From an uncultured Candidatus Saccharibacteria bacterium (lineage in GTDB: Bacteria > Patescibacteriota > Saccharimonadia > Saccharimonadales > Saccharimonadaceae), in NCBI GenBank assembly GCA_947165975.1, contig CAMVCL010000002.1, positions 4,987 to 68,986 of the forward strand: a stretch of 64,000 nt of DNA, read 5' to 3'. The position numbers were made by a program, and so were the translations under genes. Under the pieces are notes generated by a model that saw only the letters and a list, made by a program, of their open reading frames with translations, was not told where the DNA came from and did no database searches. This document shows positions 12,241 through 54,774 of this stretch, one piece after another. Within the stretch, counting starts at the first letter, position 1, and each line of letters begins with the position of its first letter.

Positions 12241-12681
12241 TTAATTTGTTGCATAGGCAATATTATGTTCCATCGCCTGAGTTTCCAATGCGACTAGACG
12301 TTCTGCGTCATTGATTGCTGAGTTAACGCAATGCTTTACGCGCGCCTTTTCTTCGGCTTTTTTAGCATCGTTCCAGCGATCCAAAGTACCAACTAGATAT
12401 CCAGTAATGCGACGTAATCTCTCAAACTTACCCTCTTCAAACCACATCGAATGTTCGTCGAAATATTCCTTCATTGCTGCTTCGCCAGCTTTTTCACCAA
12501 TCAATTTCATACCAGTTTCAACCAAACAAGAAACATGCATATTTTCGTATTGCTCAAATTTTGCCAAAGCATCTTTCACTTCTTTTTCTGAAACCTTTGC
12601 GTAACGTGAGATCGACTTCACAAATCTTTTTATGTCGAAATTTTCAACTTCATTTGGGTTTCTATAAATAATTTTCTTCAT
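12241..12681 (-). CDS. stand-alone NrdD-type glycyl-radical domain protein (146 aa)
   Basis: C-terminal KFERLRRITGYLVGTLDRWNDAKKAEEKARVKH is colinear with the class III RNR glycyl-radical signature (E. coli ...RRVCGYLGSPDARPFNAGKQEEVKRRVKH, from memory). No barrel domain. The N-terminus is loosely ATP-cone-like. Confidence 0.75.
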   Translation of the reverse strand: MKKIIYRNPNEVENFDIKRFVKSISRYAKVSEKEVKDALAKFEQYENMHVSCLVETGMKLIGEKAGEAAMKEYFDEHSMWFEEGKFERLRRITGYLVGTLDRWNDAKKAEEKARVKHCVNSAINDAERLVALETQAMEHNIAYATN

Positions 12682-12748
12682 GGTTTTTCCTTTCTAAGGG
12701 CTTCCTTTCAAGCGCCCACCATTTATTTATAAGCATTACCTACAATTC

Positions 12749-12776
12749 ATTATACCCCACATATAGCGTCTGTCAA
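12749..12776 (-). promoter_or_regulatory. sigma-70 promoter of the glycyl-radical gene (TTGACA-16-TATAAT on the minus strand)
   Basis: + strand tgtcaa at 12771-12776 and attata at 12749-12754. The spacer is filled by an NrdR-like box. Confidence 0.65.
12754..12769. promoter_or_regulatory. NrdR-box-like palindrome 1 (accccacatatagcgt)
   Basis: 12/16 match to the remembered NrdR box consensus acaCwAtATaTwGtgt. It lies in the promoter spacer. Confidence 0.5.
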
Positions 12777-12786
12777 TACATTTTTC

Positions 12787-12802
12787 ACACTAAATGTGGT
12801 GT
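12787..12802. promoter_or_regulatory. NrdR-box-like palindrome 2 (acactaaatgtggtgt)
   Basis: 14/16 identical to the box at 44902..44917 upstream of nrdD. It is 33 bp centre-to-centre from box 1. Confidence 0.55.
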
Positions 12803-12846
12803 TTTTCCACAATTTGGCCATTTCGTGATAAAATTAAGAAGATAAA

Positions 12847-22096: not shown

Positions 22097-22546
22097 ATGG
22101 AACGTAAATTCAGGATCGGAGATAGCAAAGTTCTAGAAAGCCGCGAAACGGTAGATGGTACTATGATTCGTCGCCGCCGTGAGACTACGGACGGTCATCG
22201 TTTTACTACTTATGAACGCATCGAAATGCCACCGCTTACTGTTAATAAACGTAGTGGTAATAAGGAAATCTACGATCGCGACAAACTTTTACTTGCTGTA
22301 CGTCGTAGTGTAGGCAAATTCTTCAATTCTGAACTTGAAGTTGAAGAAGTCGTTAATAAAGCTTCTGATATCCTTTATTCTTATGGTACTGACGAGATTA
22401 CTAGTAAGCAGATCGGTGAGGCTGTACTTGATGTACTTGCTGAAGTGAATGAAGTTGCCTATGTGCGTTTTGCCTCCGTCTTCCGTGAATTTAAAACGCT
22501 CGAAGATTTTGAAAATATCTTAAAAGAGCAGAAAAGGAAAAAATAA
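22097..22546 (+). CDS. nrdR: transcriptional repressor NrdR (Zn-ribbon cysteines all substituted)
   Basis: SKVLESR...IRRRRE....HRFTTYE plus an ATP-cone (KRSGNKEIYDRDKL...VAYVRFASVF). There are no Cys at the four ribbon positions. Confidence 0.85.
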   Translation: MERKFRIGDSKVLESRETVDGTMIRRRRETTDGHRFTTYERIEMPPLTVNKRSGNKEIYDRDKLLLAVRRSVGKFFNSELEVEEVVNKASDILYSYGTDEITSKQIGEAVLDVLAEVNEVAYVRFASVFREFKTLEDFENILKEQKRKK

Positions 22547-44793: not shown

Positions 44794-44863
44794 CCTTCAT
44801 GTAGGTGGTTCTTCCAAAATAGACCCATTTGTTTGAATAATTCAAAAATCGCATAAAAAGCAC

Positions 44864-44892
44864 TTGCATTTCCATATTTAGTGTTATATACT
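44864..44892 (+). promoter_or_regulatory. nrdD promoter (TTGCAT-17-TATACT, or TGtTATATA extended -10)
   Basis: Direct reading. The spacer is occupied by an NrdR-like box. Confidence 0.55.
44869..44884. promoter_or_regulatory. NrdR-box-like element A (tttccatatttagtgt)
   Basis: The right half is a perfect NrdR half-site, 11/16 overall. It lies in the promoter spacer. Confidence 0.45.
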
Positions 44893-44901
44893 AAGATACA
44901 G

Positions 44902-44917
44902 ACACTAAATGTAGCGT
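44902..44917. promoter_or_regulatory. NrdR-box-like element B (acactaaatgtagcgt)
   Basis: 12/16 self-complementary. It is 33 bp centre-to-centre from element A and 14/16 identical to 12787..12802. Confidence 0.55.
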
Positions 44918-44954: not shown

Positions 44955-47150
44955 ATGTTCAAAAGAATCGTCAAGAGAGACGGTAAAATCGTTAAATTCG
45001 ATCCAGAAAAGATTACTGAAGCTATCGCTAAGGCTGGTCTTGCCACTGAAGAATTCAAACATGATCGCGCGAAGGCTCTAACCGAAAAAGTTTTGACTCG
45101 CGCTGAGGAGAAAATCACTTCACGTACTCCCAATGTTGAACAACTCCAAGACATCGTCGAAGAGGTGCTTATGGAATCTAGCTTCAAGAAGACTGCTCGT
45201 GCCTACATACAATATCGCCAAGAACGTTCCCGCCGTCGTGAAGCCAAATCTGATCTCATGATGATCTATCGTACCATTAGTCATGCTGACGCCTCCGAAG
45301 ACTCCGACGTTAAGCGTAGCAACGCCAACGTCGATGGTAACTCCGCCATGGGCAAAATGCTTCAATTTGGTGCTGAAGGCTCAAAGGTCTTTGCTAAGTC
45401 ATTACTCCTTCGTCCTGATATTGCCGCCGCACATGATAATGGCGATATTCATATTCATGATCTAGATTTCTATGCTACTGGTACGCTCACATGCTGCCAA
45501 TCTGACCCATTCGTATTATTCGAAAATGGTGGTTTCAACACCGGCCACGGTCACTTACGTACTCCAAATTCTATCGGTTCTTACGGCGCACTTGCTGCTA
45601 TCTTGCTCCAGGCCAATCAGAATGAACAGCACGGTGGTCAGTCTATCCCTAATTTTGACTATGCTATGGCGCCAGGCGTCAACAAATCATTCCGCAAGGC
45701 CCTGAAGCGCAATCTAGCTAAATATAACAAATTCACTAAGAAGCATCTTGAACTCGATGTCAAAGACACTTACGAATATGGTGATGACGAAAAACTTAAA
45801 AAAGCCAAATGGCCAAAAGAGGTTATTGAAGCTTCCAACGATGATGTTGAGCGCGAAACTCTTCAAGCCATGGAGGGATTCATTCATAATCTCAATACCA
45901 TGCATTCGCGTGCTGGCGCCCAGGTACCATTTACCTCAATCAACTTCGGTACCGACACGAGCCCATCCGGTCGTTTAGTTTCTAAATACCTACTTGAGGC
46001 TACCGAAAATGGTCTTGGTAAAGGTGAGACTCCGATTTTCCCAATTTCTATCTTTAAGGTTAAATCTGGCATCAATTACGAACCAGATGATCCAAACTAC
46101 GACCTCTTTAAAAAATCTATGGAAGTTTCCGCAAAACGTCTCTTCCCAAATTTCTGCTTTATTGATGCTCCATATAATCTCAAATATTACAAAAAAGGCG
46201 ATTATCGCACCGAGATTGCTACCATGGGTTGCCGTACTCGTGTATTCTCGTCCGTTTTTCCAGAATCAGACGGCATCGTCACCGGTCGTGGCAACCTTTC
46301 CTTCACCACTGTGAATCTAGTTCGTATTGGCATCAAACACGGTATTTGTACTGGTGAGCGTAAAGAGGCTGATTGGGAAGGATTCTATAAAGAACTCGAC
46401 GAAAAGATGGACTTGGTTAGGGATGAATTACTTGAACGCTTTGAATTCCAGGCTAACCAACATGTCCGTAACTTCCCATTCCTCATGGGGCAAGGGAACT
46501 GGTTCGGTTCAGAAAAACTCGGGCCTAATGATACATTGCGTGATGTCATCAAACACGGTACACTTTCAATCGGTTTCATCGGCCTAGCTGAAACTCTCGT
46601 CGCTATGACTGGAAAACACCATGGCGAAGATGAAGACGCTCGCGATCTTGGCCTTGACATTGTTACTCATATGCGTGAGAAATGCGACTCATACTGCAAG
46701 AAACACAAGCTTAACTTTAGTCTCCTTGCTACTCCAGCCGAAGGTATTGCTGGGCGTTTTACAAAGATTGATCGCAAGGAATTTGGCAAGATTAAAGGCG
46801 TAACTGATCGTGAATTCTACACCAACTCTTTCCATGTGCCAGTCTATTACCCAATTTCTGCTTTTGAAAAGATTGAGATTGAAGCTCCGTATCATAACCT
46901 CTGTAATGCTGGCCACATTACCTACATCGAATTAGATGGTGACCCATCTCAAAATATCGCTGCCTTTGAATCTGTAATCCGCAAGATGCACGATGAAGGT
47001 ATTGGCTATGGTTCAGTCAACCATCCAGTAGATCGTGATCCAGTTTGTGGCTTCTCTGGTATAATCACCGGTAATCGCTGTCCACACTGCGGACGTCTCG
47101 AAGGCGATTTGCCGTTCGAAAAAGTCAAAACCTGCGCGAAAGGGGAATAA
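44955..47150 (+). CDS. nrdD: anaerobic (class III) ribonucleoside-triphosphate reductase catalytic barrel, lacking the C-terminal glycyl-radical segment
   Basis: N-terminal ATP-cone IVKRDGKIVKFDPEKITEAIAKA. NrdD core blocks (GDIHIHDLDFY, TMGCRTRV, LLATPAEG). It ends ...VCGFSGIITGNRCPHCGRLEGDLPFEKVKTCAKGE* with no RxxGY. Confidence 0.88.
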   Translation: MFKRIVKRDGKIVKFDPEKITEAIAKAGLATEEFKHDRAKALTEKVLTRAEEKITSRTPNVEQLQDIVEEVLMESSFKKTARAYIQYRQERSRRREAKSDLMMIYRTISHADASEDSDVKRSNANVDGNSAMGKMLQFGAEGSKVFAKSLLLRPDIAAAHDNGDIHIHDLDFYATGTLTCCQSDPFVLFENGGFNTGHGHLRTPNSIGSYGALAAILLQANQNEQHGGQSIPNFDYAMAPGVNKSFRKALKRNLAKYNKFTKKHLELDVKDTYEYGDDEKLKKAKWPKEVIEASNDDVERETLQAMEGFIHNLNTMHSRAGAQVPFTSINFGTDTSPSGRLVSKYLLEATENGLGKGETPIFPISIFKVKSGINYEPDDPNYDLFKKSMEVSAKRLFPNFCFIDAPYNLKYYKKGDYRTEIATMGCRTRVFSSVFPESDGIVTGRGNLSFTTVNLVRIGIKHGICTGERKEADWEGFYKELDEKMDLVRDELLERFEFQANQHVRNFPFLMGQGNWFGSEKLGPNDTLRDVIKHGTLSIGFIGLAETLVAMTGKHHGEDEDARDLGLDIVTHMREKCDSYCKKHKLNFSLLATPAEGIAGRFTKIDRKEFGKIKGVTDREFYTNSFHVPVYYPISAFEKIEIEAPYHNLCNAGHITYIELDGDPSQNIAAFESVIRKMHDEGIGYGSVNHPVDRDPVCGFSGIITGNRCPHCGRLEGDLPFEKVKTCAKGE

Positions 47151-47711
47151 ATGGCCGAAAAAACCGATTGGCATCAAATCGCATTAGATAAAATCGCCAA
47201 ACAACTTGAAACTCCAGAGGGGTATATCCGCCTCTCTGGTCCCCTAGAACATGATAATATCGTCAATGGTGATGGCCTTCGTGTCGTGCTTTGGACTCAA
47301 GGTTGCCCTAACCATTGTAAGGGTTGCCAAAATCCAGAGACTTGGGATTACGAAGCTGGTTTCCTTATCGAAATCGAAGAGATTAAACAAAGGCTTAAAC
47401 AGTTCCGTGGGCAAGCCGGCATTACCTTTTGTGGTGGTGAACCATTTGTCCAAGCCAAAGCTTGTAAAGAAATCGCCGATTGGGCTAGAAAAGAATTAAA
47501 CTGGAACGTTTGGAGCTTCTCCGGTTTTACGCATGAAATCATCAAAGAATATGGCGGCGAACCTTGGGAATTACTAAAATCGCTCGATGCATTGATCGAC
47601 GGCCCATTTATACTAAGTCAGCGCGATTTAAGTCTTAGGTTTCGCGGCTCTAAAAATCAGCGACTCTTAAGACTTGAGCTAGGTACCGGCAAAATATTGT
47701 CAATCGAATAA
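47151..47711 (+). CDS. nrdG: class III RNR activating enzyme (radical SAM)
   Basis: CX3CX2C cluster motif GCPNHCKGC, and GITFCGGEP. The ATG abuts the nrdD stop. Confidence 0.88.
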   Translation: MAEKTDWHQIALDKIAKQLETPEGYIRLSGPLEHDNIVNGDGLRVVLWTQGCPNHCKGCQNPETWDYEAGFLIEIEEIKQRLKQFRGQAGITFCGGEPFVQAKACKEIADWARKELNWNVWSFSGFTHEIIKEYGGEPWELLKSLDALIDGPFILSQRDLSLRFRGSKNQRLLRLELGTGKILSIE

Positions 47712-54600: not shown

Positions 54601-54667
54601 GTTATAAAAAATACGCCCAACGGGCTTATTTTTTTGTGGCGATAAAGAAATATACTACAAATAATTA

Positions 54668-54703
54668 TTTAGTGTTTTGCAACAAATGTTGCAAAACACT
54701 AAA
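54668..54703. repeat. perfect 36-bp palindrome (16-bp arms, 4-nt centre)
   Basis: tttagtgttttgcaac-aaat-gttgcaaaacactaaa. The outer ends carry the same TTTAGTGT/ACACTAAA half-sites as the NrdR-like boxes. Confidence 0.85.
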
Positions 54704-54774
54704 GGTTGTAAAAACAGATTAGTGTCAGAGTGATATAATCGCCCTAACGGAGGAGAAAGGGAATAAAAAGCGGA

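What the first reader, a model, noticed from the sequence alone, without database searches (positions are those of the whole stretch)
12749..12802. Pair of NrdR-box-like palindromes overlapping a consensus promoter in front of the glycyl-radical gene, with the same motif and spacing as at nrdD
On the minus strand the gene has TTGACA-16-TATAAT (12776..12749). The spacer is filled by accccacatatagcgt (12754..12769), which matches 12/16 of the NrdR box consensus acaCwAtATaTwGtgt as I remember it. A second box, acactaaatgtggtgt (12787..12802), lies 33 bp away centre-to-centre.

Upstream of nrdD there are also two boxes (44869..44884 and 44902..44917) with exactly the same 33-bp spacing, and one of them again sits in the promoter spacer. 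Box 12787..12802 and box 44902..44917 are 14/16 identical, sharing an 11-mer acactaaatgt. Two unlinked genes sharing a tandem operator of identical geometry is the regulatory signature expected if they encode two parts of one enzyme.
Basis: partly seen in the sequence, partly recalled or inferred. Interest (0 to 1): 0.65.

Follow-up and report, generated by a model that had tools for sequence, protein, structure and literature searches.

The report
NrdR operator on split-reductase radical gene
Two repressor-binding sites of the kind that control DNA-precursor enzymes sit on the promoter of a small gene that carries the missing radical-bearing tail of this bacterium's only ribonucleotide reductase, and the same paired sites sit on the reductase gene 32 kb away, so the two pieces are very probably switched on and off together.

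Summary
Boxes 12754-12769 and 12787-12802 lie 33 bp apart. The first fills the spacer of a perfect TTGACA-16-TATAAT promoter for the 146-aa gene 12241-12681(-). nrdD has an equivalent pair at 44869-44884 and 44902-44917.

Plain consensus counting is not significant. Three stricter tests are:
- All four boxes carry the six positions shown experimentally to be critical for NrdR binding (C4, A6, A8, T9, T11, G13). Their 17-bp spacer is within the functional 14-17 bp range.
- A matrix built only from relatives' sites ranks three of the four boxes as the top three hits in the 882-kb genome.
- Across 41 genomes of the genus, a strict two-box pattern matches 71 times and its reversed control 0 times. 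64 of the 71 lie directly upstream of nrdD or of the small gene. Genomes without the small gene have one pair, and the one genome without nrdD has none.

All 24 orthologues examined keep the order box, -35, box, -10.

Two qualifications apply. The operator sits one box further upstream relative to the promoter than at nrdD. Six relatives with an intact NrdD also have the NrdR-controlled small gene, so the operator shows a link to the reductase rather than proving a split enzyme.

The genus's NrdR lacks all four zinc-binding cysteines but keeps the DNA-contact residues. Binding itself is untested.

The parts
12787..12802 (.). Promoter-distal NrdR box (ACACTAAATGTGGTGT), upstream of the -35
   Evidence: It has all six critical positions (6/6) and scores 21.0 bits with the matrix built from relatives, rank 3 in the genome. 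It is conserved in 24/24 orthologues.
12754..12769 (.). Promoter-proximal NrdR box (ACCCCACATATAGCGT) filling the -35/-10 spacer
   Evidence: It has all six critical positions (6/6) and scores 21.2 bits, rank 2 in the genome. The centre distance to the distal box is 33 bp, a 17-bp spacer.
12771..12776 (-). -35 hexamer TTGACA
   Evidence: The promoter matches 12/12. TTGAC is conserved at this position in the orthologues.
12749..12754 (-). -10 hexamer TATAAT
   Evidence: Found by the promoter scan. The orthologues have TATAAT or TAGAAT here.
12241..12681 (-). 146-aa gene: N-terminal domain plus the NrdD-type glycyl-radical tail (FERLRRITGYLVGTLDRWND..RVKH)
   Evidence: Residues 85-117 match Pfam NRDD positions 532-562 of 562. 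The motif is invariant in 24 orthologues.
12803..12811 (+). TTTTCCACA, a DnaA-box-type 9-mer next to the distal NrdR box
   Evidence: The same 9-mer occurs four times just upstream of dnaA. It is present upstream of 13/24 orthologues, in either orientation.
12727..12741 (-). Conserved 15-nt element AGGTAATGCTTATAA at the expected transcript start; function unknown
   Evidence: Read by eye in the and printouts, it is present in 16 of the 18 orthologues from the clade with truncated NrdD. The 14-mer is unique in the genome.
44869..44884 (.). nrdD NrdR box 1 (TTTCCATATTTAGTGT) in the promoter spacer
   Evidence: It has all six critical positions (6/6) but a weak left arm and scores 11.3 bits. The homologous box is present in relatives.
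44902..44917 (.). nrdD NrdR box 2 (ACACTAAATGTAGCGT) over the expected start site
   Evidence: It scores 22.0 bits, the best site in the genome. It lies 33 bp from box 1.
44864..44892 (+). Putative nrdD promoter TTGCAT-17-TATACT
   Evidence: It matches only 8/12 and falls below the scanner's threshold. Relatives have better hexamers at the same place.
44955..47711 (+). nrdD (731 aa, no glycyl-radical tail) and nrdG (activase)
   Evidence: NrdD covers Pfam NRDD positions 2-529 of 562 plus an ATP-cone. NrdG matches Fer4_12 and Radical_SAM.
22097..22546 (+). nrdR, the presumed repressor; its zinc ribbon has lost all four cysteines
   Evidence: It matches Pfam Zn_ribbon_NrdR and ATP-cone. The cysteine-free form is found in all 30 NrdR sequences of the genus that I read out.

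Best explanation
The two 16-bp palindromes are an NrdR operator, and NrdR represses the small gene.

Inferred mechanism, taken from the characterised NrdR proteins:
- Here the boxes are separated by a 17-bp spacer, about three helical turns between centres.
- One box occupies the -35/-10 spacer of the small gene's promoter and the other lies just upstream of the -35, so bound NrdR keeps RNA polymerase off.
- An equivalent pair does the same at nrdD-nrdG, where it covers the spacer and the start site.
- When dATP is low, NrdR shifts to oligomers that cannot bind DNA, and both promoters open together.

The consequence would be joint production of the reductase body (NrdD without its tail), its activase (NrdG) and the separately encoded glycyl-radical tail.

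Shown here: the sites, their match to the known requirements, their conservation across the genus, and their near-exclusive association with these two genes.

Inferred: the binding, the repression and the nucleotide dependence.
For: 1. All four boxes carry C4, A6, A8, T9, T11 and G13. These are the six positions that Shahid et al. 2026 found highly conserved and critical for NrdR binding (PMC13584703). The same paper shows that two boxes are required.
2. The spacer is 17 bp. Spacers of 14-17 bp bind in vitro, and 15-17 bp repress in vivo (PMC12051234).
3. A matrix built from 92 boxes of relatives, with this genome excluded, has the consensus ACACTATATATAGTGT. It is 99-100% invariant at exactly those six positions.
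4. All 24 orthologues of the small gene (50-92% protein identity) have a box, about 10 nt, TTGACA, a box, then TATAAT, with centre distances of 32 or 33 bp. The surrounding DNA is not alignable. In 26 of the 28 nrdD upstream regions examined the best-scoring pair is 32-33 bp apart, with one box in the spacer and one over the start site. In one of the other two (G006) the pair picker chose a neighbouring site, and in the other (G010) the pair lies outside the 170-nt window; both pairs appear.
5. The strict pattern CYANATNTRG-N20-23-CYANATNTRG matches 71 times in 41 genomes of the genus, and its reversed control 0 times. Of these, 36 lie within 300 bp upstream of nrdD and 25 upstream of the small gene. 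Three more are contig-end fragments with nrdD-type architecture.
6. Genomes with nrdD only have 1 pair, genomes with both genes have 2, and the one genome without nrdD has 0.
7. In 90 genomes of other genera the same pattern, with a wider gap, matches 4 times and its control 8 times.
8. NrdR is encoded at 22097-22546. It keeps the residues that contact DNA in the S. coelicolor structure: R12, D15, R17, R26-29 and R37 correspond here to K11, E14, R16, R25-28 and R35.
Against: - No binding or expression data exist. No RNA run holding this organism could be identified.
- The NrdR of this genus has no zinc ligands, so its ability to fold and bind DNA is assumed, not shown.
- The nrdD box 44869-44884 has a degenerate left arm and scores only 11.3 bits. 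The nrdD promoter in this genome matches only 8/12.
- A 17-bp spacer is at the upper edge of the functional range.
- Three clusters of equally good boxes lie away from any reductase gene in this genome. The motif is therefore not wholly exclusive to reductase promoters.
Confidence: 0.85

Rival explanations
1. The boxes are conserved operators but are read by some other protein. On this view the cysteine-free NrdR has lost DNA binding and survives only as a nucleotide-binding protein.
For: All four zinc ligands are replaced (C3R, C6R, C31T, C34G) throughout the genus. The zinc ribbon is the DNA-binding domain (PMC9110341).
Against: - The box profile in this genus is identical to the canonical NrdR box at all six critical positions.
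- The DNA-contact residues, the RRRR motif and RFTTYE are all conserved.
- The protein is under clear purifying selection across the genus, at 62-97% identity.
- No second NrdR-like gene is present in this genome.
Confidence: 0.06
2. The pair upstream of the small gene is an inherited relic, copied along with nrdD promoter DNA when the small gene arose, and no longer functions.
For: The two promoters look alike: an A-tract, then (C)TTGA(C/A)A, a box in the spacer, then TATAAT.
Against: - The boxes and their 32-33 bp spacing persist in 24/24 orthologues down to 50% protein identity, while the flanking leader and upstream DNA have diverged beyond alignment.
- The core positions are 99-100% conserved.
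Confidence: 0.05
3. The boxes are chance AT-rich palindromes of the kind common in promoters of a 40% GC genome.
For: Simple matching to the degenerate consensus finds about 150 sites at 12/16 or better in the genome.
Against: - Core pairs occur 4 times against 0.43 expected.
- The matrix scores show a clear gap after the top 7 sites, and all 7 are intergenic.
- The genus survey gives 71 matches against 0 for the control.
Confidence: 0.01

Closest known systems
NrdR box pairs at nrdDG, nrdAB and nrdHIEF of E. coli, and at nrdAB and nrdRJ of Streptomyces coelicolor (Rozman Grinberg et al. 2022, PMC9110341; Shahid et al. 2026, PMC13584703)
   Same: Two partially palindromic 16-bp boxes with C4, A6, A8, T9, T11 and G13. 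The boxes are about three helical turns apart and overlap the promoter or start site of a ribonucleotide reductase gene.
   Different: - The spacer is 16-17 bp rather than the usual 15-16.
- One target is a free-standing gene for a glycyl-radical tail, not a reductase operon.
- The cognate NrdR has no zinc-binding cysteines.
- Binding has not been tested.
GrcA/YfiD of E. coli and Y06I of phage T4 (autonomous glycyl-radical 'spare parts' for pyruvate formate-lyase)
   Same: A small protein whose C-terminus copies the glycyl-radical domain of a large glycyl-radical enzyme. In six relatives it coexists with an intact enzyme.
   Different: - The tail is of the NrdD type, not the PFL type.
- In this genome the large enzyme has no tail of its own, so the small protein must be an obligatory subunit rather than a spare.
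- It is regulated by NrdR.
- The 2026 review of glycyl radical enzymes states that spare parts are known only for formate lyases (PMC13450708).
[quoted passage not shown]
   Same: A DnaA-box-type 9-mer (TTTTCCACA) lies next to the NrdR operator of a reductase-related gene.
   Different: It is present in only 13/24 orthologues and in either orientation. No evidence of DnaA binding exists.

Membership tests
NrdR operator (NrdR box pair) | A 16-bp partially palindromic box with conserved C4, A6, A8, T9, T11 and G13 | tested here: met
   All four boxes have 6/6. The criterion comes from PMC13584703.
NrdR operator (NrdR box pair) | Two boxes separated by a spacer of 14-17 bp (or 24-27 bp) | tested here: met
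   The spacer is 17 bp at both genes. Across the genus it is 16 or 17 bp. The criterion comes from PMC12051234.
NrdR operator (NrdR box pair) | Overlaps the promoter or transcription start of a reductase gene | tested here: met
   The small gene has a box inside the spacer of a 12/12 promoter. At nrdD the boxes lie in the spacer and over the start site, but this genome's nrdD promoter matches only 8/12.
NrdR operator (NrdR box pair) | Conserved upstream of orthologues and rare elsewhere in the genome | tested here: met
   24/24 orthologues of the small gene carry the pair. 64 of 71 strict pairs in 41 genomes lie at nrdD or the small gene, against 0 control matches.
NrdR operator (NrdR box pair) | An NrdR (zinc ribbon plus ATP-cone) is encoded in the genome | tested here: inconclusive
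   Both Pfam domains match and the DNA-contact residues are kept. However, all four zinc-binding cysteines are absent throughout the genus.
NrdR operator (NrdR box pair) | Binding by NrdR that depends on dATP and ATP, with repression of transcription | not testable with these tools
   No RNA runs for this organism could be identified. This needs band-shift, thermophoresis or reporter assays.
Two-piece class III ribonucleotide reductase (body plus separate glycyl-radical tail) | The two proteins cover complementary, non-overlapping parts of the NrdD profile | tested here: met
   NrdD covers positions 2-529 and the small protein covers 532-562 of 562.
Two-piece class III ribonucleotide reductase (body plus separate glycyl-radical tail) | A truncated NrdD always co-occurs with the small gene | tested here: met
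   All 18 genomes that have a truncated NrdD and were searched for both genes hold the small gene at 68% identity or more. G062 and G063 also hold it.
Two-piece class III ribonucleotide reductase (body plus separate glycyl-radical tail) | The two proteins assemble, and NrdG installs the radical on the small protein | not testable with these tools
   This needs co-expression, EPR spectroscopy and an activity assay.
GrcA-type spare part | Coexists with an intact parent enzyme and rescues it after oxygen cleavage | tested here: not met
   In this genome NrdD has no tail of its own. Coexistence with a full-length NrdD is seen only in six relatives: G003, G008, G009, G019, G024 and G030. Rescue cannot be tested here.

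The most novel reading that the evidence does not exclude
The small protein began as an NrdR-controlled spare glycyl-radical tail for an intact NrdD. That state still exists in six species of the genus. In one clade of Saccharibacteria it became the obligatory radical-bearing subunit after NrdD lost its own tail.

On this reading a zinc-free NrdR, possibly together with DnaA, keeps the unlinked pieces in step with DNA replication. This would be the first spare-part or detachable radical module for a glycyl radical enzyme other than pyruvate formate-lyase. It would also be the first NrdR that works without zinc.
Probability: 0.45. Interest if true: 0.8.

Novelty: new member of a known kind. Interest (0 to 1): 0.6.

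Why it matters
The operator is the main evidence, independent of protein sequence, that ties an unannotated 146-aa protein to ribonucleotide reduction. Its presence tracks gene content across 41 genomes: one pair per nrdD and one more per small gene.

This makes a question that the 2026 review of glycyl radical enzymes leaves open directly testable: do spare or detachable radical domains exist outside pyruvate formate-lyase (PMC13450708)? The proteins, promoters and repressor needed for that test are now defined.

The result also shows that canonical NrdR boxes are maintained in a genus whose NrdR has lost every zinc ligand. That predicts a zinc-independent fold for a DNA-binding domain now under study as an antibacterial target.

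Tried and rejected
- **Consensus counting.** Counting matches to the remembered consensus genome-wide was too permissive in this AT-rich genome. I replaced it with core-position pairs and a matrix built from relatives.
- **Third operator at window 54660-54711.** I rejected it: one box lacks C4, the other lacks T9, and both score under 8 bits.
- **Expression data.** The only candidate run is of unknown kind and gives fragmentary low-depth contigs with no information on transcript starts.
- **Is 16-17 bp spacing peculiar to the zinc-free NrdR?** I scanned 90 genomes of other genera in the order. The pattern proved too specific to this genus: 4 matches against 8 for the control. The few plausible pairs found also have centres 32-33 bp apart, so no conclusion is possible.
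- **Known RNA families.** None matched at the finding or at two of the three orphan box clusters, the dnaE-smpB and C8 loci.
- **Orphan box element as a conserved repeat.** BLAST across the genus found only short, non-syntenic pieces. The exception is the closest relative, G011, where one orphan is syntenic.
- **Complementarity between the small gene's leader motif (GGTAATGCT) and nrdD leaders.** By eye in the printout it appears in only 4 of 28 nrdD leaders, and it is absent from this genome's. I dropped the idea.

Full report
**What is there**

The window lies on contig 2 of an 882-kb, 40% GC genome. Earlier notes of this scan call the organism a gut Saccharibacterium, and the runs that hold the sequence are goat and sheep gut metagenomes.

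On the minus strand, the gene 12241-12681 encodes a 146-aa protein. Residues 85-117 match positions 532-562 of the 562-position Pfam NRDD profile, which is the glycyl-radical tail (FERLRRITGYL...RVKH).

The nrdD gene at 44955-47150 encodes 731 aa covering profile positions 2-529 plus an ATP-cone. It stops just after the zinc site, and nrdG follows immediately. The genome has no class I or class II reductase, so this is its only route to deoxyribonucleotides.

**Checking the observation**

All coordinates, sequences and match counts in the finding are right.

The promoter scanner independently reports TTGACA-16-TATAAT at 12776..12749 as a 12/12 match. The corresponding nrdD promoter, TTGCAT-17-TATACT, matches only 8/12 and is not reported.

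The genome contains 21 sites at 13/16 or better and 132 at 12/16.

**Are these NrdR boxes?**

Shahid et al. 2026 show that six positions of the box are highly conserved and critical for binding: C4, A6, A8, T9, T11 and G13. They also show that two boxes are needed (PMC13584703). Rozman Grinberg et al. 2025 show that spacers of 14-17 bp bind and that 15-17 bp repress in vivo (PMC12051234).

All four boxes here have 6/6 critical positions, and both pairs have a 17-bp spacer. Pairs meeting these criteria occur 4 times in the genome, against 0.43 expected.

**Conservation in the genus**

I collected the upstream regions of 24 orthologues of the small gene (50-92% protein identity) and of 28 nrdD genes from the same genus.

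Every orthologue of the small gene has this layout: box, about 10 nt of A-rich DNA, TTGACA, box, TATAAT or TAGAAT. The box centres are 32 bp (12 cases) or 33 bp (10 cases) apart. In two further cases the pair picker chose a neighbouring site.

nrdD has a different layout: TTGACA or TTGAAA, a box in the spacer, the -10, then a second box over the start site. Centres are 33 bp (21 cases) or 32 bp (5 cases) apart. G010 looked like an exception only because its pair lies 185 nt upstream of nrdD, outside my window.

The DNA around these elements is not alignable between species.

A matrix built from 92 boxes of relatives, with this genome excluded, has the consensus ACACTATATATAGTGT. It is 99-100% invariant at exactly the six published critical positions.

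**Specificity**

Scanning this genome with that matrix gives 7 sites at 19.7 bits or more, then nothing until 15.2 bits.
- Ranks 1-3 are 44902, 12754 and 12787.
- The fourth box of the finding, 44869, scores 11.3 bits because its left arm is TTT.
- All 7 top sites are intergenic in a genome that is about 92% coding. Lower-scoring sites are mostly inside genes.

Across 41 genomes of the genus, the strict pattern CYANATNTRG-N20-23-CYANATNTRG matches 71 times. The reversed control matches 0 times. The 71 matches break down as follows:

| Location of pair | Number |
|---|---|
| Within 300 bp upstream of nrdD | 36 |
| Upstream of the small gene | 25 |
| Contig-end fragments with nrdD-type layout | 3 |
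| Orphans, away from either gene | 7 |

The number of pairs per genome follows gene content:
- Genomes with nrdD alone have one pair.
- Genomes with nrdD and the small gene have two. G007 and G017 are exceptions, each with one degenerate pair.
- The single genome without nrdD (G061) has none.

In 90 genomes of other genera of the order, the pattern with a wider gap matches 4 times and its control 8 times.

**The repressor**

The protein from 22097-22546 matches Pfam Zn_ribbon_NrdR and ATP-cone, but all four zinc-binding cysteines are replaced: C3R, C6R, C31T and C34G. The same holds in all 30 NrdR sequences of the genus that I read out. Eight genera of other families in the order keep CxxC...CxxC.

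The residues that contact DNA in the S. coelicolor complex are R12, D15, R17, R26-29 and R37 (PMC9110341). Here they are retained as K11, E14, R16, R25-28 and R35. Other genera of the order also have E at the D15 position.

Canonical boxes persist in exactly the genus that lost the zinc ligands. This argues that the protein still binds them, but that is an inference.

**How it most likely works**

The mechanism is inferred from the characterised NrdRs. A tetramer loaded with dATP and ATP binds both boxes on one face of the DNA and kinks each at its central AT. Because one box fills the -35/-10 spacer at both genes, RNA polymerase is excluded. With ATP alone, NrdR forms oligomers that cannot bind, and both promoters open.

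The outcome is joint expression of the reductase body, the activase and the radical-bearing tail.

1. The operator is shifted by one box relative to the promoter between the two genes. This shift is consistent across the genus.
2. Six species with a full-length NrdD of 795-807 aa that keeps its own tail also have the small gene (50-57% identity) behind the same operator: G003, G008, G009, G019, G024 and G030.
3. NrdR control therefore predates the loss of the NrdD tail. It marks the small protein as linked to the reductase, not specifically as half of a split enzyme.
4. In the clade with NrdD at 88% identity or more to this one, NrdD is truncated (open frames of 725-766 aa). All 18 such genomes that were searched for both genes have the small gene, and so do G062 and G063.

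**Comparison with what is known**

The sites are ordinary NrdR operators in every testable respect. What is unusual is one of the targets and the repressor.

The 2026 review of glycyl radical enzymes states that spare-part proteins are known only for formate lyases and that it is undetermined whether others exist (PMC13450708). My literature searches found no description of a split NrdD, of an NrdD-type spare part, or of nrdD regulation in Saccharibacteria. McLean et al. 2020 note only that host-associated Saccharibacteria acquired nrdD (PMC7427843).

Earlier notes of this scan report the same small protein behind NrdR boxes in other genomes. I formed my reading before seeing them and treat them as leads only.

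**Verdict**

The operator is a new member of a known kind. Its value is that it ties an undescribed radical-tail protein to the reductase and shows that a zinc-free NrdR keeps canonical sites.

Noticed in passing
window 22097-22216 (nrdR N-terminus); L061-L098: NrdR lacks all four zinc-binding cysteines in all 30 sequences of the genus that I read out. Eight other genera of the order keep CxxC...CxxC. The DNA-contact residues and the RRRR motif are retained, and canonical boxes persist in the genus.
   Followed up: partly
window 12803-12811: TTTTCCACA lies next to the distal NrdR box. The same 9-mer occurs four times within 120 bp just upstream of dnaA (contig 3, 37884-38002) and once after it, so it is probably this organism's DnaA box. 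It is present upstream of 13/24 orthologues of the small gene, in either orientation, but upstream of only 5/28 nrdD genes.
   Followed up: partly
window 12727-12741 (minus strand): The 15-nt element AGGTAAT(G/A)CTTATAA sits at the expected transcript start of the small gene. By eye in the and printouts it is conserved in 16 of the 18 orthologues from the clade with truncated NrdD. The 14-mer is unique in the genome. Its function is unknown.
   Followed up: partly
genome contig 1, 57983-58031 and 97257-97306; contig 8, 38685-38714 (outside the window): Orphan clusters of two or three high-scoring NrdR-type boxes, all with a CTAGAT half-site. They lie in intergenic DNA after uvrB, between dnaE and smpB, and between two convergent genes. 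The two contig-1 copies share about 100 bp, including a TTGTTCGG-N3-TTGTTCGG repeat. Relatives have 7 such orphans in 41 genomes, mostly at different places; the one in G011 is syntenic with the uvrB copy. I found no known RNA family at the two clusters I scanned, dnaE-smpB and contig 8.
   Followed up: partly
L019-L024: Six species of the genus have both a full-length NrdD with its own glycyl-radical tail and the small gene. This is an apparent intermediate, 'spare-part' state. Position 52 of the small protein is Cys in the clade with truncated NrdD (HVSCLVE) but V, L or R in these six.
   Followed up: partly
window 44831-44846: A 15-bp palindrome, TTTGAATAATTCAAA, lies upstream of the nrdD -35. 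It is absent from the closest relative, G011. Species with a full-length NrdD instead carry a TTGTAA-N3-5-TTACAA palindrome at a similar place.
   Followed up: no
window 12780: An A>C variant in the linker between the two boxes appears in contigs from two runs of the best-matching sample. It lies outside both boxes and both promoter hexamers.
   Followed up: no
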